Shown piece by piece: positions 5,490 through 60,198 of a stretch of DNA of 64,000 nt (positions within the stretch are counted from its first letter, which is position 1; each line of letters starts with the position of its first letter). The stretch is from NCBI GenBank assembly GCA_951406725.2, contig OX597823.1, positions 88,412,001 to 88,476,000 of the forward strand, given 5' to 3'. The position numbers and the translations under genes are program-made. The DNA is from Octopus vulgaris. Its lineage: Eukaryota. Under the pieces are notes generated by a model, which was not told the origin of the DNA, ran no database searches, and saw only the letters and a program-made list of their open reading frames with translations.

Positions 5490-5720
5490 CGGAGAAAATA
5501 CCTTGCGGACAAAATGCCGAACAAAACACTTGATAAAATGCCTTGCAGAATCTCTTCTGCCTGTATATTTTGATTTCAAATCTCGCCGAGTTCCATCCTT
5601 TCGGGGTCGATTAAATAAGTACCAGTAACGCACTGGGGTCGATATAATCAACTTAATCCGTTTGGCTGTCCTTGTTTGTCCCCTCTATGCTTAGCCCCTT
5701 GTGAGTAATAAAGAAATAGA
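5490..5720 (+). mobile_element. tRNA-derived SINE family A, decayed
   Basis: catcctttcggggtcgattaaataagtaccag..gcactggggtcgat..tgtccttgtttgtcccctct..taataaagaaata shared with 28671, 44532 and 57657. Confidence 0.75.
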
Positions 5721-7282
5721 TATTTAGAAGTTAATATGAGTAGAATCTTAACATAGAAAAAATCAGAATGAGATTAATATTTTATAGCCAAAATTGCTTT
5801 GCTTATACTGATAACAACATTAAAGAACGTATTAATAATGTAACGTCTGACAGTAGCTTAATTCTGTAGACAAAAACTTAATTGATATTAAAATACATTA
5901 TAAATACTTACTCTGGTAAATACATACTCTGCAATAAGAAGCCAAATAATTTCTTCTTCAGAATCTCCTCAGCAATATCCTTGTTATTGCTTAAATTCGG
6001 TGACTTAAAAATCTGGTATTTACTATGTAATGTGAGCGTAACCTTAACATAGGAAAATTCACGTGTTGCATATTTCTCTTTTGAGGTCGATATCAGCACA
6101 TTCCAAACATGTAGCTACATAGTTGCAGTAAGTACATCGCAATCAGAAACACTTCTGACAAGTTTTGTACATCGCAAAATAATTGCCTCTGAGAATATCA
6201 CAATGTTCTGATGCACTCAGAACCTGCATTCCATTCTCGTCACGTTTTCGTCGGTTGTTGAAGCTTTAAGTAATGTTTCGATTGTGTAATGTAATTTTCT
6301 GTGGTTTTCTCATTGAGATAACTGTATACATACACACATTTTCGTCTAACGAAGTCATGTAGAGAATACATAATGGTTATCTGCATTCCGAAAGATATGA
6401 TTTCTAGGATTATTAAAACGGAAATTTAAGTGATTGCGAGATATAATGTGAGGAAACTTTGATTCCTAACGCGATAAACATTGACTTAATTATAATGGTG
6501 AAATTACATATTGTGCAGCTTGAGTTGTGATAAGTTTAGCTTGAATATTCATCAACTATCATTTCAATATGCTTTCCTTTTATTGCAACGGCAAATGGAA
6601 TTCTAACCTTGCAGATTAGTATTTCCTATGACAATGTTTACGGATAATCCCGACACAGCATTGCCGTATGGCCTCTCGACAGCGTAAACTTAAAATACAC
6701 CGACGTTACCTTTGACTCTCGCTCATATTGTATGGACGGCTTATTGACTGATATTATAATGGGCACGATTCATAAGCGCGTATTATTTCATACAAATGTG
6801 ATTTTCCTTTTTTTTTTTTTGTTCACTTCAAACATCTCGAAATTACATTTTTTTCTACCGAGAGACCAGAATTAACTTGATCGGTCATACACTAGGTGCC
6901 TTTCTGTCGACTACTGTACTATACGCGATGAACTGCTGATGTGTGGAATAATTATTGATTTTTACCTTGTCACAGCACATGGCATAAAGTTTTAATCGAT
7001 AACATAATCAATTAAATCGATACAGTTTATAGCAGGCAGCTAATTACATAAACGGAACATAACCAATATCAGCGCGATTTTCAAAATTCTTAATTAGTGA
7101 TAATACAAAAGACATCATGTAAATAATATATTGTGCTGATAAATATAAATAAGATAAAAGTTTGAGATAGGTTTCTATAAGAATTTCGATTTTCCAACAG
7201 AAAACATGTCAGAGGAAAGACACGAAGTGTATAAAAGAGAAAAATCCAAACTGTAGATGAATTAATATGTCAAATCAAGATA

Positions 7283-7465
7283 GCGAGGTGGCAGGATCAT
7301 CATAACGCCGGACAAAATGCTTAGCAATATTCCAATCACTTTTACGTTCTGAGTTCAAATAGCATCAAGGTCGACTTTGCCTTTCATCCCTTCAAGTTCT
7401 GGGGTCGATAAAAGAGACTTAGCTCTTGCCTCGAAACTGCTAGCCTTGTGACAAAATTTGAAACC
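7283..7465 (+). mobile_element. SINE family A variant
   Basis: gagttcaaat B-box and ggtcgactttgcctttcatcc core. Confidence 0.65.
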
Positions 7466-19580: not shown

Positions 19581-20175
<595 letters not shown>

Positions 20176-20316: not shown

Positions 20317-20810
20317 CAGATGGGTGGATGGATGGATAGATAGACAGACAGGTAGTTAGCTAGCTAACTATAAAGACAGACAGACAGACAGACCGGCAGG
20401 CAGGCAGTCAGGCAGGCAGCCAGGCAGGCAGGCAGGCAGGCAGACAGGCAGACAGACATACAGACAGACAGACAGACAAACATACAGACAGATTGATTGA
20501 TTGATTGATTGATTGATAGACAGACATACAGACATATTGATTGAACCCAAGGAATATTGTTTATGAATCTGCCACTACTTTAATTTGCCACTTTTTTATG
20601 AATTTGCCATTACTTCAAGGGGCTGTTTCTGCTTTCATTTCCAACCATTTTTGCCGTTAGCTTTGTTGATACTACGATTAGGAAGCACCACTTCCTTTCC
20701 TTCACATATTTATCTGGTCTATTGAGCACTAACTGTCTTTGTGTGCCCGATACATTAGTGTATTTCTTTTATCCGTCTCTGATAACGGTTTCGGTATATG
20801 TTAATCACAT

Positions 20811-22856
20811 ATGCTTAGGTTGGTGTTTCCATTACCTGAGCAATTACTAATGTATAATATTCACAAATATCTCATAGCGGTACACACAAACACATACCTG
20901 TGTGTGTATACGAAGATCTATAAGTATATGCATGAAATCCCACCCCTATATGGCCTTCGCAAAGATCACAAGAGCCACACGGACAATATACTTGGGCCAC
21001 CCACCCGACCCGTTTGTGGTGCCAACAATGCAAACAACCACAAAATATCATACTTTCTCTCACAATTCCTACGACCGTTAATAGAACTATCTGCAGATGT
21101 ATGTGACAGTACTGAGGACCTCCTTAGCAGGATCCGCGAATGCAACAACACGTGTGACCTCAAGAACCACATCGTGGGTAGCATGGATGTGGTATCACTA
21201 TACCCCTCCATCGATATAGACTTTGCTGTCGATAAATGTATAGAAATAGTTAGTGAGAGTGGTATGATATTTAAGAATGTGGATGTATATGAACTAGGGC
21301 TCTTCCTGGCCCTGACGTGTACCAATGAATACCTGTCGCGCAATAACCTTCTATATGCTTGTCCCACCCGTAACAAACGCGGTAGACCACCTACCATTAC
21401 CTCGGCTTACAGGAAGACTCACTGTGAGCGTTGGCAGGGATGGACAAAGCCGGACTACCCACCCTCAAGTGCACACGATATTAGAACCACCATCGCACAT
21501 GCCATCGGTGTCAGCCTGAGATTTACGCTAAAAACACATATTTTTAAATTTGACAACAAACTGTATAAGCAAACGAAAGGCGGTGCTATTGGAGTGGGGA
21601 TCGCCGGTGACGTTGCTAACCTCTTCATGGTATGGTGGGACAAGCGTCTTAAACAGTGCCTAGCAAACCGTAACATCCACTTGGCTATGTACTCTCGTTA
21701 CGTCGACGACATTAACCTTGTTGTGAAATGTAATACAGACACAGTTATGGGCCCTCTACCAAGTGAAGAACAGGTGATGACATCTATACAACACATAGCT
21801 GACTCTATCCACAGCAGTATAAAACTTACCATAGACTACCCCTCTAGACACCCCAGTAAACGATTACCCGTCCTAGATACTGAGCTATGGATGGAAGACG
21901 CTATAGTTAATGGTACCATTAAACCATGTATACTCCACTCACACTATCAGAAACCGATGGCTAATCCACTAGTAATCCGTAGTGACTCAGCTGTGTCGGA
22001 TACTGCCAAACTCAACATCCTAGTGGCAGACTTAGTTAGAGTAATGAGGAATGTATCACCACTATGCCAACCACAAGAACGACAACAACACATCCAGCAC
22101 TACATATTCCGAATGCAACGTTCCGGATACACACAAGACGATAGAGTCAGGGTGTACAAAGGAGCGAAAGCTAGATTCGAACGCATTCTAGGGAACGACG
22201 AAAACGGTATATGCCCCCTGTACCGCAACAAGTTCTGGAATAGGTTAGAGAGGGACACCAACAAAAAGATGAGAAACGTTACTTGGTACGATAACAGGAG
22301 ATTTCACGGAGTGATGTTCGTTGACGCCACACCTATGAACGAGCTAAGTAAGGCATTCAAGAAAGTCCTGCGCACTACGGGCCTAAAAGTTAAAGTTGTA
22401 GAAAAGACAGGTAGGACTATCAAATCGGCATTATGCAGATCATATCCATTTGATAGAATCACCTGTCAGAGTAATTGTGCAGTGTGTTCGACAAATCCAC
22501 ACGTAAATTGTAATACCAAGGGCACTGTATACCAGATTAAGTGCCAGGAGGGAGCTTGCGCGGCTAACCCGGAGTCATACATAGGTGAGACCTCTAGAAG
22601 CATCAATGATAGGTTCAAAGAACACCTGGACAACTACATTGAAAGGAAGCCAAACTCCATCTTCTACCAACATGCTGTAGACTGCCACAAGGGATCCTTA
22701 GGGGAGCTTAAGTTGAACATCCTATCTACACATCCCACCGATGCAATGTTGAGACAGGTCACAGAAGCTGTTTGTATACAAGAATACAAACCTACTCTCA
22801 ACCGAAAGTCCGAATGGAATAACATCCAGATCCCATTCAGAAGGACTATTCTATAA
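20811..22856 (+). CDS. Penelope-like retroelement ORF: reverse transcriptase plus GIY-YIG endonuclease, 5'-truncated (homology starts ~20928); Naiad-like
   Basis: LYGLRKDHK, PTRPV, SMDVVSLYPSI, QTKGGAIG, RYVDD, LPVLD, Cys linker CQSNCAVC..C, TVYQIKC..YIGETSRS..RFKEH, EAVCI..LNRK; no internal stops. Confidence 0.92.
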   Translation: MLRLVFPLPEQLLMYNIHKYLIAVHTNTYLCVYTKIYKYMHEIPPLYGLRKDHKSHTDNILGPPTRPVCGANNANNHKISYFLSQFLRPLIELSADVCDSTEDLLSRIRECNNTCDLKNHIVGSMDVVSLYPSIDIDFAVDKCIEIVSESGMIFKNVDVYELGLFLALTCTNEYLSRNNLLYACPTRNKRGRPPTITSAYRKTHCERWQGWTKPDYPPSSAHDIRTTIAHAIGVSLRFTLKTHIFKFDNKLYKQTKGGAIGVGIAGDVANLFMVWWDKRLKQCLANRNIHLAMYSRYVDDINLVVKCNTDTVMGPLPSEEQVMTSIQHIADSIHSSIKLTIDYPSRHPSKRLPVLDTELWMEDAIVNGTIKPCILHSHYQKPMANPLVIRSDSAVSDTAKLNILVADLVRVMRNVSPLCQPQERQQHIQHYIFRMQRSGYTQDDRVRVYKGAKARFERILGNDENGICPLYRNKFWNRLERDTNKKMRNVTWYDNRRFHGVMFVDATPMNELSKAFKKVLRTTGLKVKVVEKTGRTIKSALCRSYPFDRITCQSNCAVCSTNPHVNCNTKGTVYQIKCQEGACAANPESYIGETSRSINDRFKEHLDNYIERKPNSIFYQHAVDCHKGSLGELKLNILSTHPTDAMLRQVTEAVCIQEYKPTLNRKSEWNNIQIPFRRTIL

Positions 22857-28670: not shown

Positions 28671-29083
28671 GTGGCGAGCTAGCAGAATCGTTAACACATC
28701 GGTCGAAATGCTTAGCGGTATTTCGGCTGCCTTACGTTGTGAGTTCAAATTCCGCCGAGGTCGACTTTGCCTTTCATCCTTTCGGGGTCGATAAATTAAG
28801 TACCAGTTACGCACTGGAGTCGATGTAATCGACTTAATACCTATGTATGTCCTTGTTTGTCCCCTCTCTGTTTAGCACCTTGTGGGTAATAAAGAAATAG
28901 GTATTTCGGCTGCCGTTACGTTGTGAGTTCAAATTCCGCCGAGGTCGACTTTGCCTTTCATCCTTTCGGGGTCGATAAATTAAGGACCAGTTACGCACTG
29001 GGGTCGATGTAATCGACTTAATACCTATGTCTGTCCATGTTTGTCCCCTTTATGATTAGCCCCTTCTGGGTAGTAAAGAAATA
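28671..29083 (+). mobile_element. SINE family A, full copy plus tandem 5'-truncated second copy
   Basis: ggcgagctagcagaa A-box region, gagttcaaattcc B-box; body repeated from 28900. Confidence 0.85.
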
Positions 29084-29697
29084 GGTAGTTGTTAACGCTG
29101 ATGGTGTTCAATGTTGATAAACATTTATGTTATAGTGATATTTGATAAGTTTAAAATATTACGTATTAGCTATCACCATCGCTATCTCTGGGTGTACCGT
29201 ACTATTCTAAAGCCAAACACATCGAGATCAAGGATGAGAAACAGGCATTCTCTGCTTATTAAGCCGAATCCGCGTCGCTAAATTTAAATGGGTAAGCTTT
29301 ATTTTTGGAAGAAAATCACCTATTCAAATTTAGTTTATATCTACCGGAAGAAAATTAATGTTACTCTAATTTGTTTATCGTGTTCTGTAAATAACTATGT
29401 AAACATTATTTACAAATGAAGTGTATTTCAAAAGAAATGGAGCGGTATAAATGACCAAGGCATAGATGCAAATTAAATTGTGTTGTTGCAGCTCTAAGTA
29501 TTGTTAGTTTATAAACAGAATCCAGTTAACGAAATATACGTATTTTAAATGGCTTCCATGATCTGCTTCGGTATACATTCTTAGTACACACATCCATATA
29601 TCATATTCCACACTTTAATTATTGAACAGTATCTGCTTGAGCTCGTTCTTAAGAAAACTAAAATTCATGTAGCAGCTATCATCTATGTTACTTATAG

Positions 29698-30922: not shown

Positions 30923-30950
30923 CTATATATGTTACATTACTCGGTAGTCA

Positions 30951-31013
30951 AGATAAAACTCTGAGTTTCAGATGCCGAAGTGGAAATCCACAACACCATC
31001 TCTTCGGTTATCT
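30951..31013 (-). ncRNA. Type I hammerhead ribozyme variant (family b), mirror copy
   Basis: Reverse complement of 31073-31135. Confidence 0.6.
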
Positions 31014-31072
31014 GGCTATTTGAAAACGTTATGAAAAAATACCGTATTTTTTCATAACGTTTTCAAATAGCC

Positions 31073-31135
31073 AGATAACCGAAGAGATGGTGTTGTGGAT
31101 TTCCACTTCGGCATCTGAAACTCAGAGTTTTATCT
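31073..31135 (+). ncRNA. Type I hammerhead ribozyme variant (family b)
   Basis: agataa-CCGAAGA-gatg...catc-t-GAAA-ctc-a-gag-TT-ttatct: stems I-III present, U4C core variant, GUU cleavage triplet. Confidence 0.6.
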
Positions 31136-31231
31136 TGACTACCGAGTAATGTAACATATTGTATAGATAAATTTCCTCTATTTACATAATATTGAGGTCT
31201 CTTTCTTTCTTTTGTTATCTTACCGTTTTAT

Positions 31232-31272
<41 letters not shown>

Positions 31273-31355
31273 GGTCCCGGGTTGATTCGGGGCTAACCAC
31301 AGTAAATAAGGTACTCAATACATAGTAGAGTAAAATTAATTTATTATATAGAAGG

Positions 31356-31406
31356 AGCTTCTACAGGACTAGAACTGTTTCATTCAAGAGAAATCTTCAG
31401 GAAGCT
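31356..31406 (-). ncRNA. Type I hammerhead ribozyme (family a)
   Basis: Reverse complement of 38401-38451. Confidence 0.88.
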
Positions 31407-32001
31407 AGTTAACAAGAATTGTATTGGCATTTATACATTTAGGCAGGTTTAAAGGGGTGTTGGTGGGGGACTTTTTGGGGGTAGGCATAGCGCAAAATAT
31501 CATACTTGGGGGAGTGGTCAAGGAGTCAGTGTTAAATTAGATAGAAGAATAAATAAAAAATTTAAAAATATATAAAAAAATATATAAAAATATATATAAA
31601 AAAAGGGAATAGAGTTTTAGGTAAATAAGGAGATTCTCACTTATACCTATGCACATATGTATACATATATACACACACATACAAACATATATACATATAC
31701 ATACACACATACGTACACACACACATATACATATATATACACTTACACATACATATACATATCTACACATACACATATATGTATACATACACACACTCAC
31801 ATGCATACACGTATACACACATGTATATATACACACACGACCACACATACATATACACACAGAAAAGTATATATACACATACACACACATACTCACATAC
31901 ACGCATACACACACATATCCACACACACATATGCACACACAGCACACTAGTCCCTATATACACATATATACACATACACACACATATACACACACATACA
32001 T

Positions 32002-32049
<48 letters not shown>

Positions 32050-32513
32050 GTGTACCTATGCATACCTACACATACACACATATATATACACATACAAATA
32101 CAGACCCATTCCCTAATTTTAATTTTATTATCTTCATTTATTACTTTTGTTATCTTTGATCGCTGGTCACAAACATCTTGGCTATGACAGCCAGTCCATT
32201 TATCTGTCTACTGGAAAACAAGCACTCATTTACTCACGCACACTCTTTAGCACGTACACTCACTCATTCGTACACTCATACACATACACGCACGCACGCG
32301 TTATATTCATACATACATACATCTACATACATTCACGTATATACACATACGTACGCGTACCTACAGATTCATGTCTACACTCTTAGAAGGCTAGTCTATA
32401 CATATACACCAATGAATATAAATACACACACATACATATACACCTACATACAAATACATACATGTATATATATATATATACATATACATACATATTCACA
32501 TATATATACACAC

Positions 32514-32550
<37 letters not shown>

Positions 32551-32900
32551 CATACATATACACATTTACATATATATATATACATATACACACACATACA
32601 CATACATACATATACACACATACACATACATACGTATACATACATACATACATCCATACATACATACATTTATACACATACACACACCCACACGTATACA
32701 TATACGTACATATATATACGCACATGCATACACATACAAATACATACACATACGCATATACATATACATACATACACATACACACACACGTGCCTCCTTA
32801 TATTCATACTTACATGCATACTCAAAAAATAAATAATAAATATTAAGTATATGTACGTGCAGTTACCTATTATATAGCCGGATACATACAATATAAACTT

Positions 32901-32957
<57 letters not shown>

Positions 32958-33180
32958 TATACATATACATATATACACATATATATACACACACATATAC
33001 ACATATATATATATATATACATACTTACACACATGTACAAATACATACACACATAGATAACTCTACGTACCTACATATACATAAACACACGAGCGTACAC
33101 GTATATGTACATATACACATACACATACACACGCATATATATACATACATACATACACATACACACATATATACACACAC

Positions 33181-33233
<53 letters not shown>

Positions 33234-33480
33234 TACATATACACACACATATACATGTGTGCAAACATACATACATACTCATACACGCACACACACTTAC
33301 ATATACATATATACACACACTTACACACATATATATACATACACATATACATACATACATACATACATATATGCATACATACACACACACATATATATAT
33401 ATACATACATACACATACACATACCTATACATATATATACACACATATATACACATGCACATACTTATATCTCTACATAC

Positions 33481-35154
33481 TCGCATATTGCCACCTCCCT
33501 TAAAATCGATGACCGAACTGAACCCCTGAGGGTGAAGTCCCCACACTTCACCCTGAAAGACCACAAAGACCATTTCGAAAATAAACCGTCGGTCCGTTTG
33601 ATTAACCCAACCAAGTCTGACATCGGATCCGTCAGCAAGAAGATCCTGGACAGGATTTTACCAAAAATGCGTGAAGCTTCACCCCTTCCACTCTGGAATA
33701 GGACCTCCGAGGCAATAACCTGGTTCCCGGATTTACCTGACAAAAGCAACACCCGATTCCTACAACTGGATATCGAGGATTACTACGCCTCCATATCGGA
33801 GAGCTTGCTGATCGACGCGATTAACTTCGCCAGGAGGTCCTCCACCATCACCGAGGCCGAGCAAGAAGTGATCCTCCACGCACGTAAGACTTTTCTTTTC
33901 TATGACGGATCCCACTGGATCAACAAAAAATCTGTGACCCCCTTCGACGTCAGCATGGGTGCTAACGACTCTGCTGAAATAAGTGACCTAGTGGGCCTTT
34001 TCATCCTCCATAGGCTGAAAACCCTATTCACAGGCCTCTCCGGTGGTCTTTACCGCGATGACGGCCTTTTCGCCCTCCACAAAATAAACCCCAGGACCAC
34101 GGATGGGTTCCGGAAAAATCTTTACACCTTCTTTAAAAACTTAGGCCTTAGGATTACCTTAGAACCCAACTTAACAAAAGCTAACTTCCTTGATATCACC
34201 CTCGACTTAAAAACCTCACTTTATTACCCGTACGACAAACCAAATGAATCCCTTAGATATATAGATATTAATTCAAACCACCCCAAAAATATATTAGATA
34301 ACCTAATAAAAAGTGTCTCAATTAGAATTTCTAGCCTGTCCGCCACGGAAGATATCTTTAAGGCCGCAGCCCCCTATTACAACGAGGCCCTGGCCCGCAG
34401 TGGCTTTAAAGATAAGATTACCTATACTAGTATAGCCCCACGCCAACCCAGGAAAAATAGACGAAGACACATTAGCTGGTACACCCCCCCCTTCAACCGT
34501 GAGGTCGCTACACCTGTAGCTAAAATCTTCTTCACTCTCCTACAGAAACACTTCCCCACCCAACATAAGTACTACACTATCCTAAATAAGAACACTATTA
34601 GACTCTCCTACTCTACCACGCCCAATCTAGCCAGGAACCTAGCCAACAACAATGTGAAAAAACTTAACATATCTACTTTTTCCGAGGCCCATCCAACGTC
34701 CGATAGCAATTGCAACTGCCCTGATAAAACCACCTGCCCCCTCAACAACAACTGCCTACAGAGGGACCTAGTATATACATGCGAGGTAAGATCAGGCCCT
34801 GACGATAAAAGAAAATCCTACATCGGAATGACGTCAAACAGCTTTAAGACCCGTTGGTACGCACACACACACTCGTTCCGGCGACAGGATAAATCCAACC
34901 AAACTACCCTCGCCGCCCACATCTGGTACCTTAAAAGGAACTCCATCCCCTTCAAGACCAAGTGGAAACTACTACGGAAGGCGCGCTCGTACACAGGAGG
35001 CCATACCTGCTGTGACCTCTGCATATCGGAGAGCCTAGAGATCTTGTTCGCCAAAGGCCCTCTCCTTAACAAAATCTCAGAACACTCCCCAAATTGCATG
35101 CATAAGAAGTATGCGAACTACAAGAACTATAGACCTACCCGGCAACCAGATTGA
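33481..35154 (+). CDS. Penelope-like retroelement RT plus GIY-YIG ORF, 5'-truncated (ORF-track start 33259 is inverted microsatellite)
   Basis: TLKDHK..RLINPTKS, LDIEDYYASI, FDVSMGANDSAE, LYRDDG, NFLDITLDL, CNC..CPLNNNCL, LVYTC..YIGMT..FKTRW..H, CDLCISE..LLNK; no internal stops. Confidence 0.92.
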   Translation, partial: SHIATSLKIDDRTEPLRVKSPHFTLKDHKDHFENKPSVRLINPTKSDIGSVSKKILDRILPKMREASPLPLWNRTSEAITWFPDLPDKSNTRFLQLDIEDYYASISESLLIDAINFARRSSTITEAEQEVILHARKTFLFYDGSHWINKKSVTPFDVSMGANDSAEISDLVGLFILHRLKTLFTGLSGGLYRDDGLFALHKINPRTTDGFRKNLYTFFKNLGLRITLEPNLTKANFLDITLDLKTSLYYPYDKPNESLRYIDINSNHPKNILDNLIKSVSIRISSLSATEDIFKAAAPYYNEALARSGFKDKITYTSIAPRQPRKNRRRHISWYTPPFNREVATPVAKIFFTLLQKHFPTQHKYYTILNKNTIRLSYSTTPNLARNLANNNVKKLNISTFSEAHPTSDSNCNCPDKTTCPLNNNCLQRDLVYTCEVRSGPDDKRKSYIGMTSNSFKTRWYAHTHSFRRQDKSNQTTLAAHIWYLKRNSIPFKTKWKLLRKARSYTGGHTCCDLCISESLEILFAKGPLLNKISEHSPNCMHKKYANYKNYRPTRQPD

Positions 35155-35343
35155 TGACACCCCACCCACAAACCCCCCCCAATCCCACCGTTCCCCTAAC
35201 ACCCCCGATTACCTTTTCTCCTAAGACCTTTCAAATCTTGTATGTGCACGCTTGTATATGTGTATCGTATATATGTATAGAAATGTATGGGTATAGTAGG
35301 AATAGACGCATGTATTATGTGTGTGTGTGTGTATGTATGTAAA

Positions 35344-35374
<31 letters not shown>

Positions 35375-35771
35375 GCGTGTGTGTGTGTGTGTATATATGT
35401 ATATATGTATATATGTATATGTGTATATATGTGTGTATGCATATGTATGTGTATATGTATGTGTGTATGTATGTGTATGTATGTATAAAATATTATATAA
35501 TTAGGGCTTAGTAAAATAAATTACTTTGCCACACACTGAACTTTCTAGAAATAGCAGCCAAAACAGTTTTTTAGCCTCTTCCACTACTTAGAGAATATTT
35601 TCCCTCAGACATTATTTACTCAAAAAAATAATGGTCCTTTTACATACTGAATACTTGGTGAAATTGATTAATAACTAATTAACTTTACCCTCAATTGTTG
35701 ATATATGTATGTGTGTGTAAATATGTGTATGTATATGTATATGTACATGTATGTGTGTATGTATGTATATG

Positions 35772-35808
<37 letters not shown>

Positions 35809-36059
35809 GTATACATATATATATATGTATGTGTGTGTATATGTGTATTATGTATATATTTATAAATATATATATATATATGTATATGTATGTGTGTGTG
35901 TATATGTATATATGTGTATATATATGAGTGTACGCGAGTATGTCGATGTATATGTAGGTATGTAGAGTTATGTGTATGTGCATGTATGTGAGTGTAGATA
36001 CAAATTGTAGATGCGTATATATATGTGTGTGTATATATACATGTATATAGGTATATGTA

Positions 36060-36116
<57 letters not shown>

Positions 36117-36357
36117 GCGAGTATGTAGAGATATAAGTATGTGCATGTGTATATATGTGTGTATATATATGTATAGGTATGTGTATGTGTATGTATGTAT
36201 ATATATATATGTGTGTGTGTATGTATGCATATATGTATGTATGTATGTATGTATGTATATGTGTATGTATATATATATGTGTGTAAGTGTGTGTATATAT
36301 GTATATGTAAGTGTGTGTGCGTGTATGAGTATGTATGTATGTTTGCACACATGTATA

Positions 36358-36440
<83 letters not shown>

Positions 36441-36661
36441 GTGTGTATGTGTATGTATGTATGTATATATATGCGTGTGTATGTGTATGTGTATATGTAC
36501 ATATACGTGTACGCTCGTGTGTTTATGTATATGTAGGTACGTAGAGTTATCTATGTGTGTATGTGTTTGTACATGTGTGTAAGTATGTATATATATATAT
36601 ATATGTGTATATGTGTGTGTATATATATGTGTATATATGTATATGTATATATATGTGTGTA

Positions 36662-36714
<53 letters not shown>

Positions 36715-36965
36715 AAGTTTATATGTATGTATCCGTCTATATAATAGGTAACTGCACGTACATATACTTAATATTTATTATTATGTTTTGAGTATGCATG
36801 TATGAATAACTGCGCGTATATATATTTTATTATTTACTTATTTTTTGAGTATGCATGTAAGTATGAATATAAGGAGGCACGTGTGTGTGTGTGTATGTGT
36901 ATATGAGTATGTATGTATGTGTGTGCGTATATTTGTATATGTATGTATGTATATGTATGTGTGTG

Positions 36966-37016
<51 letters not shown>

Positions 37017-37755
37017 ATGTGTATGTATGTATATGTATATGCGTATGTGTATGTATTTGTATGTGTATGCATGCGCGTATATATATGTACGTATATGTAT
37101 ACGTGTGGGTGTGTGTATGTGTATAAATGTATGTATGTATGGATGTATGTATGTATGTATGTATGTATACGTATGTATGTGTATGTGTGTATATGTATGT
37201 ATGTGTATGTGTGTGTATATGTATATATATATATATATGTATATGTGTATATGTATGTATGTGTATATATATATATATATGTATATATATATGTATGTAT
37301 ATATATGTGAATATGTATGTACATGTATATATATATATATACATGTATGTATTTGTATGTAGGTGTATATGTATGTGTGTGTATTTATATTTATTGGTGT
37401 ATATGTATAGACTAGCCTTCTAAGAGTGTAGACATGAATCTGTAGGTACGCGTACGTATGTGTATATACGTGAATGTATGTAGATGTATGTATGTATGAA
37501 TATAACGCGTGCGTGCGTGTATGTGTATGAGTGTACGAATGAGTGAGTGTACGTGCTAAAGAGTGTGCGTGAGTAAATGAGTGCTTGTTTTCCAGTAGAC
37601 AGATAAATGGACTGGCTGTCATAGCCAAGATTTTTGTGACCAGCGATCAAAGATAACAAAAGTAATAAATGAAGATAATAAAATTAAAATTAGGGAATGG
37701 GTCTGTATTTTATGTGTATATATATGTGTGTATGTGTAGGTATGCATAGGTACAC

Positions 37756-37799
<44 letters not shown>

Positions 37800-38400
37800 A
37801 TGTATGTGTGTGTATATGTGTGTGTATGTGTATATATGTGTATATAGGGACTAGTGTGCTGTGTGTGCATATGTGTGTGTGGATATGTGTGTGTATGCGT
37901 GTATGTGAGTATGTGTGTGTATGTGTATATATATTTTTCTGTGTGTATATGTATGTGTGGTCGTGTGTGTATATATACATGTGTGTATACGTGTATGCAT
38001 GTGAGTGTGTGTATGTATACATATATGTGTATGTGTAGATGTGTATATGTATGTGTAAGTGTATATATATGTATATATATGTGTGTGTACGTATGTGTGT
38101 ATGTATATGTATATATGTTTGTATGTGTGTGTATATATGTATACATATGTGCATAGGTATAAGTGAGAATCTCCTTATTTACCTAAAACTCTATTCCCTT
38201 TTTTTATATATATTTTTATATATTTTTTTATATATATATTTTTTTTTTTTTTTTTTTTTTTTCTATCTAATTTAACACTGACTCCTTGACCACTCCCCCA
38301 AGTATGATATTTTGCGCTATGCCTACCCCCAAAAAGTCCCCCACCAACACCCCATTAAACCTGCCTAAATGTATAAATGCCAATACAATTCTTGTTAACT

Positions 38401-38451
38401 AGCTTCCTGAAGATTTCTCTTGAATGAAACAGTTCTAGTCCTGTAGAAGCT
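38401..38451 (+). ncRNA. Type I hammerhead ribozyme (family a) at the PLE 3' end
   Basis: agcttc-CTGAAGA-t-ttc-tctt-gaa-t-GAAA-cag-ttctagtc-ctg-TA-gaagct; GUA triplet, predicted cut after 38445. Confidence 0.9.
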
Positions 38452-39367
38452 CCTTCTATATAATAAATATATATATATATATATATATGCAGGTATGTAC
38501 ATGCATAATATAGATGCAGATATGTACATGTATATATATATATGCAGGTGTGTGCATGTAGAAACTCCTTACTAAATATAAAGATGTCTGTGTGTGTGTG
38601 TGTGTATTATATATGTATACCAATTCTTAGATATATGTACGTACATTACTTAAAGCAACGCATTTTACTTCACAGGAAAGATAGCTTCTTTCTAAATTTT
38701 GCTACAAGGTACTGTTATATGATTTTCTACGATAAAATGGTGAATAACTATTTTCAACTATCATGAAAATATATGTTCTTTGAACTAGAAATAGTTTTAA
38801 CATAAGAAGAATCGGAAGCCATATGCTTCACAGAAACACTTTGATACTACAGATGCATGATAAAAATCAATTCATGGGTACGAGGTTAATTCCGATACAA
38901 CTGATGTCCCTTGTACGATCCTACCAAATCCTTAGTCCCTTGTGACTTCTACCATTTACAGATCATTTTGTGAATATTATCTAGTCTTTACAATATAAGA
39001 TGAATAGGTTGTAGAGTTGAAATAAACGTAAAGGAAATGGAAAGCCTAAATCCGTAGAGGAGAGACTTATCTTGCCAAACGAAAGGTGACATACAGAAAA
39101 ATGTGCAGCACGTTTATTGTGATCCACTGTTGTGGAAATCGTAAACGTTTCGAATAGAATTTCATATCACAAATATATGGGAGACTAAGCATGGGTGCTT
39201 ATGTTTGTGTGAATGTATATATGAATAAGGAAGCATAAATGTGTTTATGTATTTTTGTCTGTGTGTCTGCATGTCACCGCATGTGCATGTATAGATTATT
39301 ATATACATATAAGAATATATAAGCATATGTCTATGTTTGCGTGCGTCTAAGCGTGTGTTTGTGTATG

Positions 39368-44531: not shown

Positions 44532-44965
44532 GGGCAGCGAGCTAGCAGAAATGTTGACACGCCGGGTGAAATGATTAGCAGTATTTCGTCTGTCTTTACG
44601 TTCTGAGTTCAAATACCGCTGACATCGCCTTTGCCTTTCATCCTATCGCGGTCGATAAATTTAGTACCAGTTACGCACTGGGGTAGATGTGATCAACTTA
44701 ATCCAATTTATCTGTCTTTGTTTGTCCCCTCTATGTTTAGCTCCTTGTGGACAATAACGAAATAAGAAATGTTGCCATGCCGGACGAAATGCTTAGCGGC
44801 ATTCTGTGCGTCTTTACATTCTGACTTCAAATTTAAACCATATCCGACGTTGTCTTTCTTCCTTACGGGAACTATAAAATAAGATCAACGCGAGCACCGG
44901 GATCGAGAAAATCAACTGAACCCCTCCCCAAAATTTCAAGTCTTACCGCTATAGTAGAAAGGATT
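44532..44965 (+). mobile_element. SINE family A followed by a decayed related copy
   Basis: ggcagcgagctagcagaa..gagttcaaatacc..gtaccagttacgcactgggg; second copy from ~44766. Confidence 0.8.
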
Positions 44966-48514: not shown

Positions 48515-49082
48515 TAATAGGTTGTCGAGAAAGTTCTTACGGTTTTTAACATTTCAATTCAGATGCACATATCTTCGCTCAAACAAAATTTTATTAATCG
48601 AAATAAGCACCGCCAGAATCAACACACTTTTGCCAACGCGAAACAAGTTGATTTATGTCAATAGTGTAAAAATCCTGCGTTCTGGTGGCGATGAAGTCGT
48701 TGAAGGCGTGTTTGGCATTGGTAGGCGAAAGGTCAGGTGAGTATGGCGGATGAGGCAGTTTCGTAGTGCAATTCGTTCAACTTCTGCAGGGTCAGTTGTG
48801 TGACGTGCGGCCGAGCGTTATCGTGGAGAAGAATTGGTCCTTGTCTATTGACCAATGCTGGATGTTGTTGTCGAAGTTTCATATGCATTTCATCCACTTG
48901 CTGACATTACTTCTCCCCTGTAATGGTTTCGACTGGATGCAAAAAGCTGTAATGGATAAGACCGGCCGCAGACCACCAAACAGTCATAATGACCTTCTTT
49001 TGGTGCAGGTTTGGCTTCAGGAAGTTCCGTGGGCCTTCGTCGGCGTCCAACCACTGAGCTGAGCATCGCCAGTTGTCGTACT
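48515..49082 (-). pseudogene. Mariner (DD34D-type) transposase 3' fragment with TIR
   Basis: YDN..SAQWLD, KKVIMTVWWS, PILLHDNARPH, PHPPYSPDLSPT, LVSRWQKCVDSGGAYFD; one stop, a frameshift and a deletion; TIR taataggttgtcgagaaagt. Confidence 0.9.
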
Positions 49083-49244
49083 ATGTTTAAATATTTTTTG
49101 ATAGATTTGTTCGAAATTTTACCGGCATCCTCTCTGTTGCCGGAAATGAACTGCATCGAGGCAGTTGTTTTGAAAAATTAGGATATACAGGCAACTAGTT
49201 TACATGCGAATCTAGTTGTGTGTATATTTGAAATCTAAAGGCTC

Positions 49245-51339: not shown

Positions 51340-51485
51340 TGTGTGTGTGTAGAGAGAGAGAGACTGACAGACAGACATGCAGTATGTTTGTATGTATGTA
51401 TATACATATTCACATATTTATACATGTATATACGCACATACACACAAATACATATACATACACATATTTACATGCGTATATATAC

Positions 51486-51806
51486 TTGGCTACGAATCGC
51501 TTCCCCACCAAGCTTATTCTCCAAACCTTTCTCCTACCGACTACCACTTTTTCAAGCAGCTTGATGATTTTCTGCGAGACAAGGAGTTCAAAAATCAAAC
51601 CGATGCTGAAAGTACATTGAAAGAGTTCATCAGCTCAAAAACTCCAGATTTTTATGCTATCAGAATAAACAAAATTGTAACTTGTTGGCAAAAACGTGTT
51701 GAATTTAATGGTACTTATTTAGATGAATAAAATTTCCGCATTATTTTAATGTATTGTGATGAATTTCATGTTTCAAAACGTTGCTTACTTTTTTCTTAGC
51801 CTGATA
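51486..51806 (+). pseudogene. Mariner transposase C-terminal fragment with 3' TIR
   Basis: LGYESLPHQAYSPNLSPTDYHFFKQLDDFL...INKIVTCWQKRVEFNGTYLD; TIR-like ttacttttttcttagcctgata then TA. Confidence 0.88.
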
Positions 51807-54462: not shown

Positions 54463-54602
54463 TGTTCTACTCTAGGCACAAGGCCCGAAATTTTGGGGGA
54501 AGGGGCCAGTTGATAAGATCGATGCCCATTACACAACGGCTACTTAATTTATCTACTCCGAAAGGAAGAAAGGCAAAGCCGACCGCGACGGAATTTGAAC
54601 TC
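54463..54602 (-). mobile_element. SINE family A variant fragment
   Basis: ggcacaaggcccgaaattttgggg..gaaaggcaaagccgacc..ggaatttgaactc. Confidence 0.65.
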
Positions 54603-55523: not shown

Positions 55524-55851
55524 CACACACACGTATATATAAGCGTGTATGAAACTTGCTGACTAAGCAGCGAATAACCTACATACGGTGTTAGAATTTT
55601 CCATCGTATATGCGAAAAAATTTTGCTGCGAAGAAACTTAGACATGTTCAAGAAACTAGGCAGGAGCACTGTCTTATACAATAACTATTAGCATTCGGGA
55701 ATTGTGTGCTGATGCTAACATGTTTTTGCAATGACTTTAGATATATATACTTCTTTACTACCCACAAGGGACTAAACATAGAGGAGACAAACAAGGACAG
55801 GCTTTAGATATATAACTTACACATTAACATACACGCATGAACATACATAAA

Positions 55852-57656: not shown

Positions 57657-57884
57657 ACGGCGGCGAGCTGCCAGAAACGTTAGCACGCCGGTCGAAATGC
57701 GTAGCCGTATTTAGTCTGTCGTTACGTTCCGAGTTCAAATTCCGCCGAGGTCGACTTTGCCTTTAATCCTTTCAGGGTCGATAAATTAAGTACCAGTTAC
57801 GCACTGGGGTCGATCTAATCGACTTTTCCCTTTGTCCTTGTTTGTCCCCTCTGTGTTTAGCCCCTAGTGGGTAGTAAAGAAATA
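57657..57884 (+). mobile_element. SINE family A, young full-length copy with TSD-like flanks
   Basis: Near-consensus body; tataattattagtaga repeated at 57642-57657 and 57885-57900. Confidence 0.9.
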
Positions 57885-58004
57885 TATAATTATTAGTAGA
57901 TGCAGAATTAAATGGGTCGTTCAGAAGTTCACTTCGCAAATACGCACTTGAGGTTCAACCCCAGAAGGCCACAAGTAAAATAGTGAATGAAAATAACGGT
58001 TCTG

Positions 58005-58341: not shown

Positions 58342-59921
58342 GGTGGTGATGATGGCGCTTATAGTTGCATTCCTGCTGCTGCAAGCATCAGAGGCGTTGC
58401 CGGTGCACCAAAGGTTGTAGAAGAATGTGATATTAACAACGCCGTTAGAAGTAGCTAAACAATAAAATACAGAAGTCGCTGAATGATAGTATGATAAACT
58501 TGAGGGAATTTTGAAGCGGGATTTTTGATGTATCTGCCTGTGCTATATTTGAAAGCAATACACGATACGCAAAAATTATTTCTGAATATCGCAAGTTTAT
58601 ATCTTTGTGGAAAATCACGTCTACGTTCGTTTTAAAGGGGATTTTTTATGTGTGTTGCATCAAGTTAACTTCAGGATTTTGTATCACTTGGACGGTGAAG
58701 ATCAACATGAATCTCAAATATGACTTGTGTTTACTGTTTTGTAACTAATAATGACGTTAGATATTACTTTTAAATATCACTTGTACAGATTTTAGTATAA
58801 TCTTTAAACACGGAGCCTCTCCCTTGTTGCTTTAGGAGGTTCCAGCCCTCGCAAAGGAATCCCATAGCTCTTTGAAGGTTGATAAACAAATTTCTAATGT
58901 TGTAGATGAATATGTTGAAAACATAGTAAATGAAAAAACATGTGTAAATATGATGCAAAAAGAACTTACTACCAACGTACGTTTCTCGTTTGAAAAACAT
59001 GAGATTTTTCCCCAGTATATGCTGTTTGTCTTAATAGTAATGCAATTCTTATCTAAAAATAATTAAATCTAGAGGCTAAACAAAAATTTTCTCAGCATGA
59101 AAACTATCTATCTCAGGGCAGCTATTTTTGAACATACAAGATTTTCTAAATATATATCATTTAGAGATACATATTTATAACATTTCTAGATATATATCTT
59201 TATTCTATAAATATTAGATATTTTGAAGTATAGTAAGTAATATGAATGCTTTATCTTATGATATCATACATCTGGTATCATATTTGATGTATCAAAGGAT
59301 ATAATATATAGGATATCATATATCTTTGGTGATAGAGTGCAGTAAATCACTTTGAAATGAAATGAAAAATACACATCATAATACTTGTTGATCTATTATT
59401 TTTACTGAAGGCTCAGATCCGGTAGCGTTAAAAATGAAATTCCTTCGATAACGAGAAAAGGAAATGAATATCAGAAGAGATGGTTGTATCACAAAAAAAC
59501 TAGGTTTAACATTTATCTCTATAAGCCTAAGTTTGTAAACGGCATTGATATTGCTTTGGTATTCCTTTTTTTCTTTCCAAAAACATTTGCATTAAATATC
59601 TCGTGGTATATTCAACCAAGTCATGAATACTTTTTTCATCAAATGATGTTTTATCAATCGCATTATTCATCATATATTGTTGATATTCTTCAGTTTTTAT
59701 CTTTTACTAGTTACGGTCATTGGACTGCGGCCACTCTGAATAGCTTAATCGAAAAAAATCGACCCCAGTAATTATTTTAATGTGTTATACTTATTCTGTC
59801 GAACACATTAACCGAACCGCCAGGTTACAGGGACAGCAAGAGTGTAACGCCTGTTTTCAAGCAGTTCTGAGACAAATGCAATGACACACACACAAACACA
59901 TACGTATATATATATATATAT

Positions 59922-60161
59922 ATTTTATTTTATAGAAGGAGCTTCTACAGGACTAGAACTGTTTCATTCAAAAGAAATCATCAGGAAGCTAGGTGACAAG
60001 AGTAGTTTTGGCATTTATACATTTAGGCAGGTTTAAAGGGGTGGTGGTGGGGGACTTTTTGGGGGTAGGCATGGCGCAAACTATCATTCTTAGGGGAGTG
60101 GTCAAACGCTATGTATTGAGTACCTTATTTACTGTGGTTAACCCCGACTCAACCCGGGACC

Positions 60162-60164
<3 letters not shown>
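59922..60164. mobile_element. Short remnant of the 31-38 kb PLE family: inverted pLTR piece plus 3' tail
   Basis: 59931-60105 matches 31347-31521; 60109-60164 is the reverse complement of 31270-31325. Confidence 0.88.
59940..59990 (-). ncRNA. Type I hammerhead ribozyme (family a)
   Basis: Minus strand agcttc-CTGATGA-t-ttc-tttt-gaa-t-GAAA-cag-ttctagtc-ctg-TA-gaagct. Confidence 0.9.

Positions 60165-60198
<34 letters not shown>

What the first reader, a model, noticed from the sequence alone, without database searches (positions are those of the whole stretch)
38401..38451. Intact hammerhead family a, three copies, varying only at tolerant positions
Seen: copies at 31356-31406 (-), 38401-38451 (+) and 59940-59990 (-). 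The 60 kb copy differs only at the variable N7 of CUGANGA (A versus U) and in the stem II loop (tctt versus tttt), while its flanking pLTR has more changes. Inference: purifying selection on self-cleavage at GUA. Stem II closes with a U-U juxtaposition and the stem III loop contains CTAG, so a dimeric fold is possible.
Basis: partly seen in the sequence, partly recalled or inferred. Interest (0 to 1): 0.7.

Follow-up and report, generated by a model that had tools for sequence, protein, structure and literature searches.

The report
Hydra-clade Penelope retroelement hammerhead
The three copies are the hammerhead RNA motif at the end of a Penelope-like jumping gene of a known group, left by only two insertions; it likely cuts the element's own RNA as its published relatives are thought to, and only its longer third stem is unusual.

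Summary
The motif is there three times, as described. It is a type I hammerhead at the 3' end of a Hydra-clade Penelope-like element (PLE). A 5'-truncated ORF lies at 33490-35154. A covariance model built only from hammerheads beside related ORFs finds all three copies at E about 5e-7. The three copies are two events: the 31 kb and 38 kb copies are the inverted and direct arms of one 7.2 kb insertion, and the 60 kb copy is the same layout in miniature. With variants from public runs, 0 of 18 variable sites fall on 36 constrained positions (P=0.011). The U-U closing stem II is ordinary: 14 of 25 published Hydra families and 16 of 37 relatives found here have it. Unusual are helix III, 6 nt longer than in any of 37 relatives, a 3' hairpin predicted to mask the cut site, and a 3.25 kb microsatellite-rich gap between ORF and hammerhead. 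Cleavage was not tested. Verdict: new member of a known kind.

The parts
38401..38451 (+). Type I hammerhead motif: stem I 38401-38406 with 38446-38451; CUGANGA 38407-38413; stem II 38415-38417 with 38422-38424, U-U at 38414/38425; GAAA 38426-38429; helix III 38429-38444; predicted cut after 38445
   Evidence: 31.4 bits, E 6.7e-7
38429..38444 (+). Enlarged helix III (4 pairs, 8-nt loop with central CUAG); 38431-38436 and 38437-38442 are two 6-nt units that differ at one base, as from a tandem duplication
   Evidence: the duplication origin is inference
38442..38460 (+). Predicted 8-pair hairpin that covers the cut site and the 3' strand of stem I; present in all three copies
   Evidence: p about 0.01-0.02 against shuffled downstream sequence, noticed after the fact
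33490..35154 (+). Open 554-codon frame of a Hydra-clade PLE (RT with YRDD, CxCx5C linker, C-terminal GIY-YIG-type region), about 161 aa short at the N-terminus
   Evidence: motifs as defined in PMC8557442 section 11
35155..38262 (+). About 3.1 kb of microsatellite-rich sequence between the stop codon and the terminal module; the part from about 36113 on is mirrored in the inverted arm
38263..38468 (+). Terminal module (pLTR end) of the direct arm; ends 23 nt after the predicted cut, at a (TA)n tract (38467-38488)
   Evidence: held by public runs of four organism labels
31270..33488 (-). Inverted arm of the same insertion, joined directly to the ORF's truncation point; holds the hammerhead copy at 31356-31406
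   Evidence: 2124 matches, 74 mismatches, indels of 56 and 126 nt
31270..31338 (-). Tail of about 69 nt, present on the inverted arm only; ends 92 nt after the predicted cut, at a (TA)n tract (31234-31269)
59923..60105 (-). Direct arm of the second, small insertion; hammerhead at 59940-59990; ends at the same short end, in (TA)n 59905-59922
   Evidence: 32.4 bits, E 3.2e-7
60109..60164 (+). Inverted arm of the small insertion: the last 56 nt of the tail only, next to (TA)n 60165-60196
   Evidence: (96% to 31270-31325)
30927..31159 (.). A second, different hammerhead-bearing palindromic insertion (116-nt perfect arms; motifs at 30951-31013 on - and 31073-31135 on +, core CCGANGA), sharing the (TA)n tract 31234-31269 with the first family
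   Evidence: (17.8 bits, E 0.012)

Best explanation
The motif is a type I hammerhead sequence at the 3' end of a Hydra-clade Penelope-like retrotransposon, present here in two insertions, and it likely cuts the element's RNA after GUA (38445/38446), probably weakly alone and better as a dimer or with the element's protein. Shown: the motif, its place at the element's end, the clade motifs of the ORF, the direct-plus-inverted layout in (TA)n, two fixed 3' ends 23 and 92 nt past the predicted cut, and variants that avoid stems and core. Inferred: in a full-length tandem source element the upstream hammerhead would free the RNA's 5' end from a read-through transcript. The element's protein would nick (TA)n and start reverse transcription at two sites downstream of the 3' hammerhead, giving a short-ended direct arm and a tailed inverted arm. 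Because every copy runs through the cut site, the template must have been uncut (or rejoined) there; the 3' hairpin is a candidate for holding it off. The copies in this window are truncated products and are probably inert.
For: Descriptor and model hits. ORF: 1570 relatives at E<=0.001 among 8000 candidates scored; of the best 120, 114 have CxCx5C, 117 CxxC..E, 115 a terminal CxH, 90 RW[KR], 110 DK[TS], 9 DKG. Atlas neighbours at 0.94-0.96 carry RVT_1 (40-78% of members) and GIY-YIG (21-31%). Of 77 loci with related ORFs, 49 reach 150 nt or more past the ORF end and 25 of these have a hammerhead there; five loci have two, 2.4-2.8 kb apart around an ORF. Published Hydra hammerheads share the U-U (14 of 25 families, File S2 of PMC8557442). 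An axolotl hammerhead with the same U-U cleaves 22% in an hour as monomer and much better as dimer (PMC7229834). Two RT start sites bounding the tail, use of uncut RNA and protein-assisted cleavage were shown for an Anolis PLE (PMC11167929). Inverted arm, tail and (TA)n targets are described in PMC8557442 and PMC3846280.
Against: No cleavage or RNA end was observed. The hammerhead fold is a minor state in the nearest-neighbour model: P about 0.02 for the 51-mer and 0.0003 with the 3' extension. Rfam, Pfam (E<=0.001) and PDB sequence searches give no useful hit. Common variants are not rarer inside the motif than outside (2 of 51 against 7 of 154, p=0.60); only their placement is non-random. 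In the Anolis element, hammerhead mutants did not change insertion in vitro and no RNA reads ended at the cut site. The hammerhead is 3.25 kb from the stop codon, against 90-549 nt in 25 relatives, so its link to this ORF rests on one insertion.
Confidence: 0.72

Rival explanations
1. The hammerhead-shaped RNA is kept as a structural signal (protein binding, positioning of the RT start sites) and cleaves rarely or never in vivo.
For: All genomic copies span the cut site and end 23 or 92 nt beyond it. The active fold is a minor predicted state. In PMC11167929 catalytic mutants did not affect insertion; PMC4209133 reports low activity of metazoan PLE motifs.
Against: The catalytic letters are what is conserved: 35 of 37 relatives have CUGANGA and one has the compensated U3-A8 form (the scan required such a core). 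Fungal PLE hammerheads with a large helix III cleave as monomers.
Confidence: 0.15
2. The hammerhead module belongs to a non-autonomous or different family, and this ORF was joined to it through captured host DNA (the 3.1 kb microsatellite stretch) in one chimeric template.
For: Distance of 3.25 kb against 90-549 nt; published Hydra elements are generally under 3 kb; Pen1_Av carries 0.9-1.5 kb captured spacers before its pLTR, and pLTRs can move unrelated DNA in trans (PMC3846280). Summed contig depth rises 7-8 fold over the hammerhead in two of three deep runs (depth is no copy number).
Against: The inverted arm abuts the ORF's truncation point, so ORF, spacer and hammerhead entered as one unit. 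The motif is of Hydra type, no other such motif lies between stop codon and module, and both insertions sit in (TA)n, the clade's target.
Confidence: 0.1
3. The pattern of changes is chance: young copies of a transposon end, with no selection on the motif.
For: One independent pair in the window; Fisher p=0.20; 0 of 13 changes on the 12 core positions has P=0.37; read variants alone give P=0.17.
Against: Pooled sites P=0.011; the three variable sites inside the motif all lie at N7 or in loops, P=0.022. Stems covary across relatives (partly circular, since the motifs were picked by pairing).
Confidence: 0.03

Closest known systems
Hammerheads of Hydra-clade PLEs (Craig et al. 2021, PMC8557442, section 11 and File S2)
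   Same: Type I topology near the 3' end, CUGANGA and GAAA cores, short stem II closed by U-U (14 of 25 families), helix III starting A-C, (TA)n targets, inverted 5'-truncated arm, CxCx5C linker, CxxC and CxH around the endonuclease E and N.
   Different: Helix III spans 16 nt against 9-10 nt in the table; the ORF-to-hammerhead distance is 3.25 kb. It is not Hydra-1_Obim, whose listed motif and protein differ (compared by eye).
[quoted passage not shown]
   Same: Place in the pLTR, proposed dimer through a palindromic helix III, low expected activity.
   Different: Those have a long stem II with G10.1-C11.1 and little or no helix III; this has a 3-pair stem II with U-U and a helix III that can close as a monomer, as in the fungal and protist PLE motifs of the same paper.
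Axolotl retrozyme hammerhead HHR_Amex2 (PMC7229834)
   Same: Type I with a U-U at the base of helix II; weak as monomer, efficient as dimer.
   Different: It lies in 350-bp tandem non-coding repeats; here the copies are dispersed ends of a coding element and no tandem array is present in the window.
Poseidon element PAc of Anolis (PMC11167929)
   Same: Two RT start sites downstream of the hammerhead that bound the tail; AT-rich targets; uncut template.
   Different: Another clade; its hammerhead is of the minimal type and overlaps the start codon. The 5' end of the element here is missing, so that could not be compared.

Membership tests
Type I hammerhead ribozyme | Core CUGANGA, GAAA, UH with three helices, stem I open | tested here: met
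Type I hammerhead ribozyme | Match to an Rfam hammerhead model | tested here: not met
   no hit at gathering score or at E<=10 on 38280-38470; a library's reach, not a defining trait of the RNA
Type I hammerhead ribozyme | Base pair at 10.1-11.1 (G-C in canonical motifs) | tested here: not met
   U-U here; tolerated in a natural active motif (PMC7229834) and usual in Hydra PLEs
Type I hammerhead ribozyme | Self-cleavage at the UH site | not testable with these tools
   no assay; no listed run is on record as RNA
Type I hammerhead ribozyme | Loop 1 to loop 2 tertiary contact | tested here: inconclusive
   constrained folding shows no stem I extension beyond 6 pairs
Hydra-clade PLE hammerhead | Fits a model of hammerheads beside related ORFs | tested here: met
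   model from 25 of 37 such motifs, none from the window: 31-32 bits, E 3e-7 to 7e-7; background from E 0.6
Hydra-clade PLE hammerhead | Short helix III with 0-3 nt loop | tested here: not met
   14 nt between GAAA and UH against 6-8 in 37 of 37 relatives; a variant feature
Hydra-clade PLE | RT followed by C-terminal GIY-YIG endonuclease in one ORF | tested here: met
   YRDD and YIG motifs, atlas neighbours with RVT_1 and GIY-YIG; no direct Pfam hit
Hydra-clade PLE | CxCx5C linker; CxxC and CxH around E and N; no CCHH in the endonuclease | tested here: met
Hydra-clade PLE | N-terminal RWK and DKT motifs | tested here: inconclusive
   that part is missing here (about 161 aa); present in 90 and 110 of the 120 best relatives; the window's own DK[TS] match lies elsewhere in the protein and does not count
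Hydra-clade PLE | Insertion in (TA)n, inverted 5'-truncated arm, optional tail | tested here: met
   both insertions
Hydra-clade PLE | Placement in the clade by RT phylogeny with reference families | not tested
   reference sequences were only read in the supplement
Non-LTR retrozyme | Head-to-tail tandem repeats of 150-450 nt, each with a hammerhead | tested here: not met
   no tandem copies in the window; rest of the genome not available

The most novel reading that the evidence does not exclude
A 6-nt duplication turned the clade's dimer-only hammerhead into one that can cut as a monomer, and a hairpin just downstream switches it off once the 3' end is transcribed. That would be a built-in switch that keeps the reverse-transcription template uncut, in a very abundant family that also carries kilobases of microsatellite-rich DNA around the genome.
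Probability: 0.15. Interest if true: 0.55.

Novelty: new member of a known kind. Interest (0 to 1): 0.25.

Why it matters
What hammerheads do for Penelope-like elements is still open: PMC8557442 calls their function unclear, and in PMC11167929 cleavage was dispensable for insertion in vitro. This family offers a compact test case, with a longer helix III than its relatives, a natural variant predicted to strengthen only the dimer, a predicted off-hairpin and two mapped 3' ends. The existence of the motif, its U-U and the dimer idea are already in print, so the finding adds a family rather than a new principle.

Tried and rejected
No whole genome is held, so copies could not be aligned genome-wide. 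Rfam: nothing at gathering score; at E<=10 the 150 rows shown of 419 were microRNA-family matches, and one RUF21 match, on simple repeats and the 31 kb palindrome (269 rows not seen); two unrelated chance rows on the narrow stretch. The repeat finder was swamped by microsatellites and was replaced by a filtered self-BLAST. Pfam gave no hit at 0.001 and only unrelated weak ones above; the PDB profile search gave one chance hit. No RNA holder listed; run X9, guessed to be RNA, gave 6 contigs and was not used as evidence of expression. The idea that a downstream off-hairpin is general in the clade was tested and rejected: 3 of 36 relatives at p<=0.05, combined p=0.58. The idea that U-U marks decay was rejected. 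A retrozyme array was rejected for this window. A hammerhead close behind the stop codon was looked for; the one-mismatch hit at 35641-35709 has no stem II and is not found by the model. Earlier notes on this place or sequence: none. A literature search for U-U variants was seen as a listing only and not followed up.

Full report
OBSERVATION. The three motifs are at the stated coordinates. A strict type I descriptor finds these three and nothing else in the window; 1 of 30 block-shuffled windows gave one hit of the same stem quality, and 5 of 30 gave hits at the looser cut-off. The 31 kb and 38 kb motifs are identical. The 60 kb motif differs at 38411 (N7) and 38419 (loop II), with 11 more differences in the other 120 of 171 aligned bases. 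Rfam does not see the motif, and the 52-mer folds no better than shuffles (z=0.14).

ANATOMY. The 38 kb copy ends a unit that starts with an open 554-codon frame at 33490-35154, about 161 aa short at its N-terminus compared with 73 relatives of 690 aa or more. After the stop come about 3.1 kb of microsatellite-rich sequence and then a 200-nt terminal module, which ends 23 nt after the predicted cut in a (TA)n tract. Directly upstream of the truncation point, 31270-33488 is an inverted copy of about 36113-38468: 2124 matches, 74 mismatches (many in microsatellites and at the unaligned ends) and indels of 56 and 126 nt. This arm carries an extra 69-nt tail and ends 92 nt after the cut, also in (TA)n. 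So the 31 kb and 38 kb hammerheads are the two arms of one insertion. The 60 kb insertion repeats the plan in small: a direct arm with the same short end, joined to an inverted 56-nt piece of the tail with the same long end, between two (TA)n tracts. The window therefore holds two events and one independent comparison. The host was not determined; the AT- and microsatellite-rich DNA resembles octopus genomes (recalled, not tested). Of 24 runs listed, 20 hold half or more of the module's words; the holders fall under four organism labels and 11 studies.

WHAT ELEMENT. The protein has 1570 relatives at E<=0.001 among the 8000 candidates scored; the best 120 are 39-55% identical. Pfam and PDB give no direct hit, but atlas neighbours at 0.94-0.96 carry RVT_1 and GIY-YIG on part of their members. 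[quoted passage not shown] Of the 120 relatives, 90 have RW[KR] and 110 DK[TS]. That paper lists (TA)n targets, canonical hammerheads in the clade and an octopus family, Hydra-1_Obim, whose motif and protein differ from this one by eye. No tree was built.

THE MOTIF AMONG RELATIVES. Of these, 49 reach 150 nt or more beyond the ORF end, and 25 of the 49 have a hammerhead 90-549 nt downstream; five loci have two, 2.4-2.8 kb apart around an ORF. Among 37 non-redundant motifs, positions 10.1/11.1 are U-U in 16, G-C in 14, A-U in 4 and G-U in 3. In File S2 of PMC8557442 I count U-U in 14 of 25 Hydra families. A covariance model from 25 of the 37 (those with a stem II region of 10-19 nt; no window sequence) scores the three copies at 31-32 bits, E 3e-7 to 7e-7, with rough calibration; background starts at E 0.6. 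The stems covary in that alignment (95.6% paired, 10 of 12 pairs with two-sided changes), but the motifs were picked by pairing, so this is partly circular. The extra 6 nt look like a tandem duplication (38431-38436, 38437-38442), which would also create the central CUAG (inference).

SELECTION. Contigs of four runs laid on 38263-38467 (1958, 1654, 989 and 6 contigs) show nine substitution sites at 3% or more. Two lie in the motif: 38411 (17, 33 and 11% of depth in the three deep runs) and 38434 in loop III (8, 15 and 12%). Variants are not rarer inside the motif (2 of 51 against 7 of 154, p=0.60), and the nine alone avoid the constrained sites at P=0.17. Pooled with the pair, 0 of 18 sites in 171 fall on them (P=0.011), and the three variable sites inside the motif are all at N7 or in loops (P=0.022). 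These tests assume uniform mutability and see only contigs over 80% alike. They point to constraint on the source lineages, not on these copies.

MECHANISM. Helix III is predicted at -1.4 kcal/mol as a hairpin (six relatives: +1.3 to +2.1) and -12.8 as a duplex (relatives: -6.8 to -9.7). The 38434 variant leaves the hairpin unchanged and takes the duplex to -15.2. So both monomer and dimer are easier than in relatives, and the one natural change favours the dimer. A U-U-closed hammerhead of the axolotl cleaves 22% in an hour alone and much better as a dimer (PMC7229834, passages). The window's copies cannot readily dimerise in cis. The active fold is a minor predicted state (P about 0.02) and drops to 0.0003 once 38452-38462 is present, because an 8-pair hairpin at 38442-38460 covers the cut site (the model has no tertiary contacts or Mg2+). 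That hairpin beats shuffled downstream sequence here (p 0.01-0.02, noticed after the fact) but is not general: 3 of 36 relatives, combined p=0.58. The two fixed 3' ends match the two RT start sites that bound the tail in the Anolis element, where uncut RNA is the template, cleavage needs the protein and core mutants do not block insertion (PMC11167929). I infer the same scheme here, with cleavage serving to define the RNA's 5' end in tandem source copies; that step is untested. The 3.25 kb distance from the ORF is far above relatives; captured spacers of 0.9-1.5 kb are known in Pen1_Av (PMC3846280 section 6), so a chimeric template remains possible.

LITERATURE SEEN. PMC4209133: parts 1-2 of 4. 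PMC11167929: parts 1-2 of 4. PMC8557442: passages, section 11, two searches and part 2 of 59 of the supplement. PMC3846280: passages and section 6. PMC7229834: passages. bioRxiv 10.64898/2026.07.22.740005: part 1 of 5. Searches; I found no paper describing this family or a Hydra hammerhead with so long a helix III, but subscription journals, Repbase and Dfam were not searched, and unread supplements may list it. Earlier scan notes on other genomes report similar PLE ends; they are leads, not support.

VERDICT. Observation confirmed; interpretation partly supported. It is a new family member of the Hydra-clade PLE hammerheads, with a modest structural variation. Interest 0.25.

Noticed in passing
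window 30927-31233: A second hammerhead-bearing insertion: perfect 116-nt palindrome arms centred 30 nt upstream of a CCGANGA-core motif with a long stem II, with a tail on one arm only; it shares a (TA)n tract with the first family. Model score 17.8 bits, E 0.012. A CCGANGA core also occurs in L056.
   Followed up: partly
window 38401, table 7: In two runs, 11 and 5 contigs go on upstream of 38401 with letters that mirror the hammerhead's 5' part, that is an inverted junction centred on the 4-base palindrome at the start of stem I; a third run has 12 loose ends at 38399 that do not mirror it. It may be a preferred inversion point or a library artefact.
   Followed up: no
window 20805-22856 (+): [quoted passage not shown]
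   Followed up: partly
window 31270-38468: A read-through transcript of the insertion would fold into a 2.2 kb double-stranded stem, pairing the hammerhead with its own antisense copy; a possible editing or small-RNA substrate.
   Followed up: no
window 36747-36880 against 32790-32867: The direct arm has a 56-nt tandem duplication and a further 126 nt that the inverted arm lacks; either two different RNA templates or change after insertion.
   Followed up: no
window 19581-20175: Another inverted repeat, 100-nt arms at 97% identity around a (TA)n-rich core.
   Followed up: no
window 48890-49177 (-), 51368-51730 (+): Short frames that read like mariner transposase fragments (recalled; no Pfam hit at 0.001).
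   Followed up: partly
window 5536-5725, 7283-7412, 28673-29094, 44533-44764, 54500-54602, 55740-55800, 57659-57895: A dispersed SINE-like repeat of about 230 nt at 73-94% identity, with a tandem pair at 28.7-29.1 kb.
   Followed up: no
L032:2095-2146: A relative with the compensated U3-A8 hammerhead core, 217 nt behind its ORF match.
   Followed up: no
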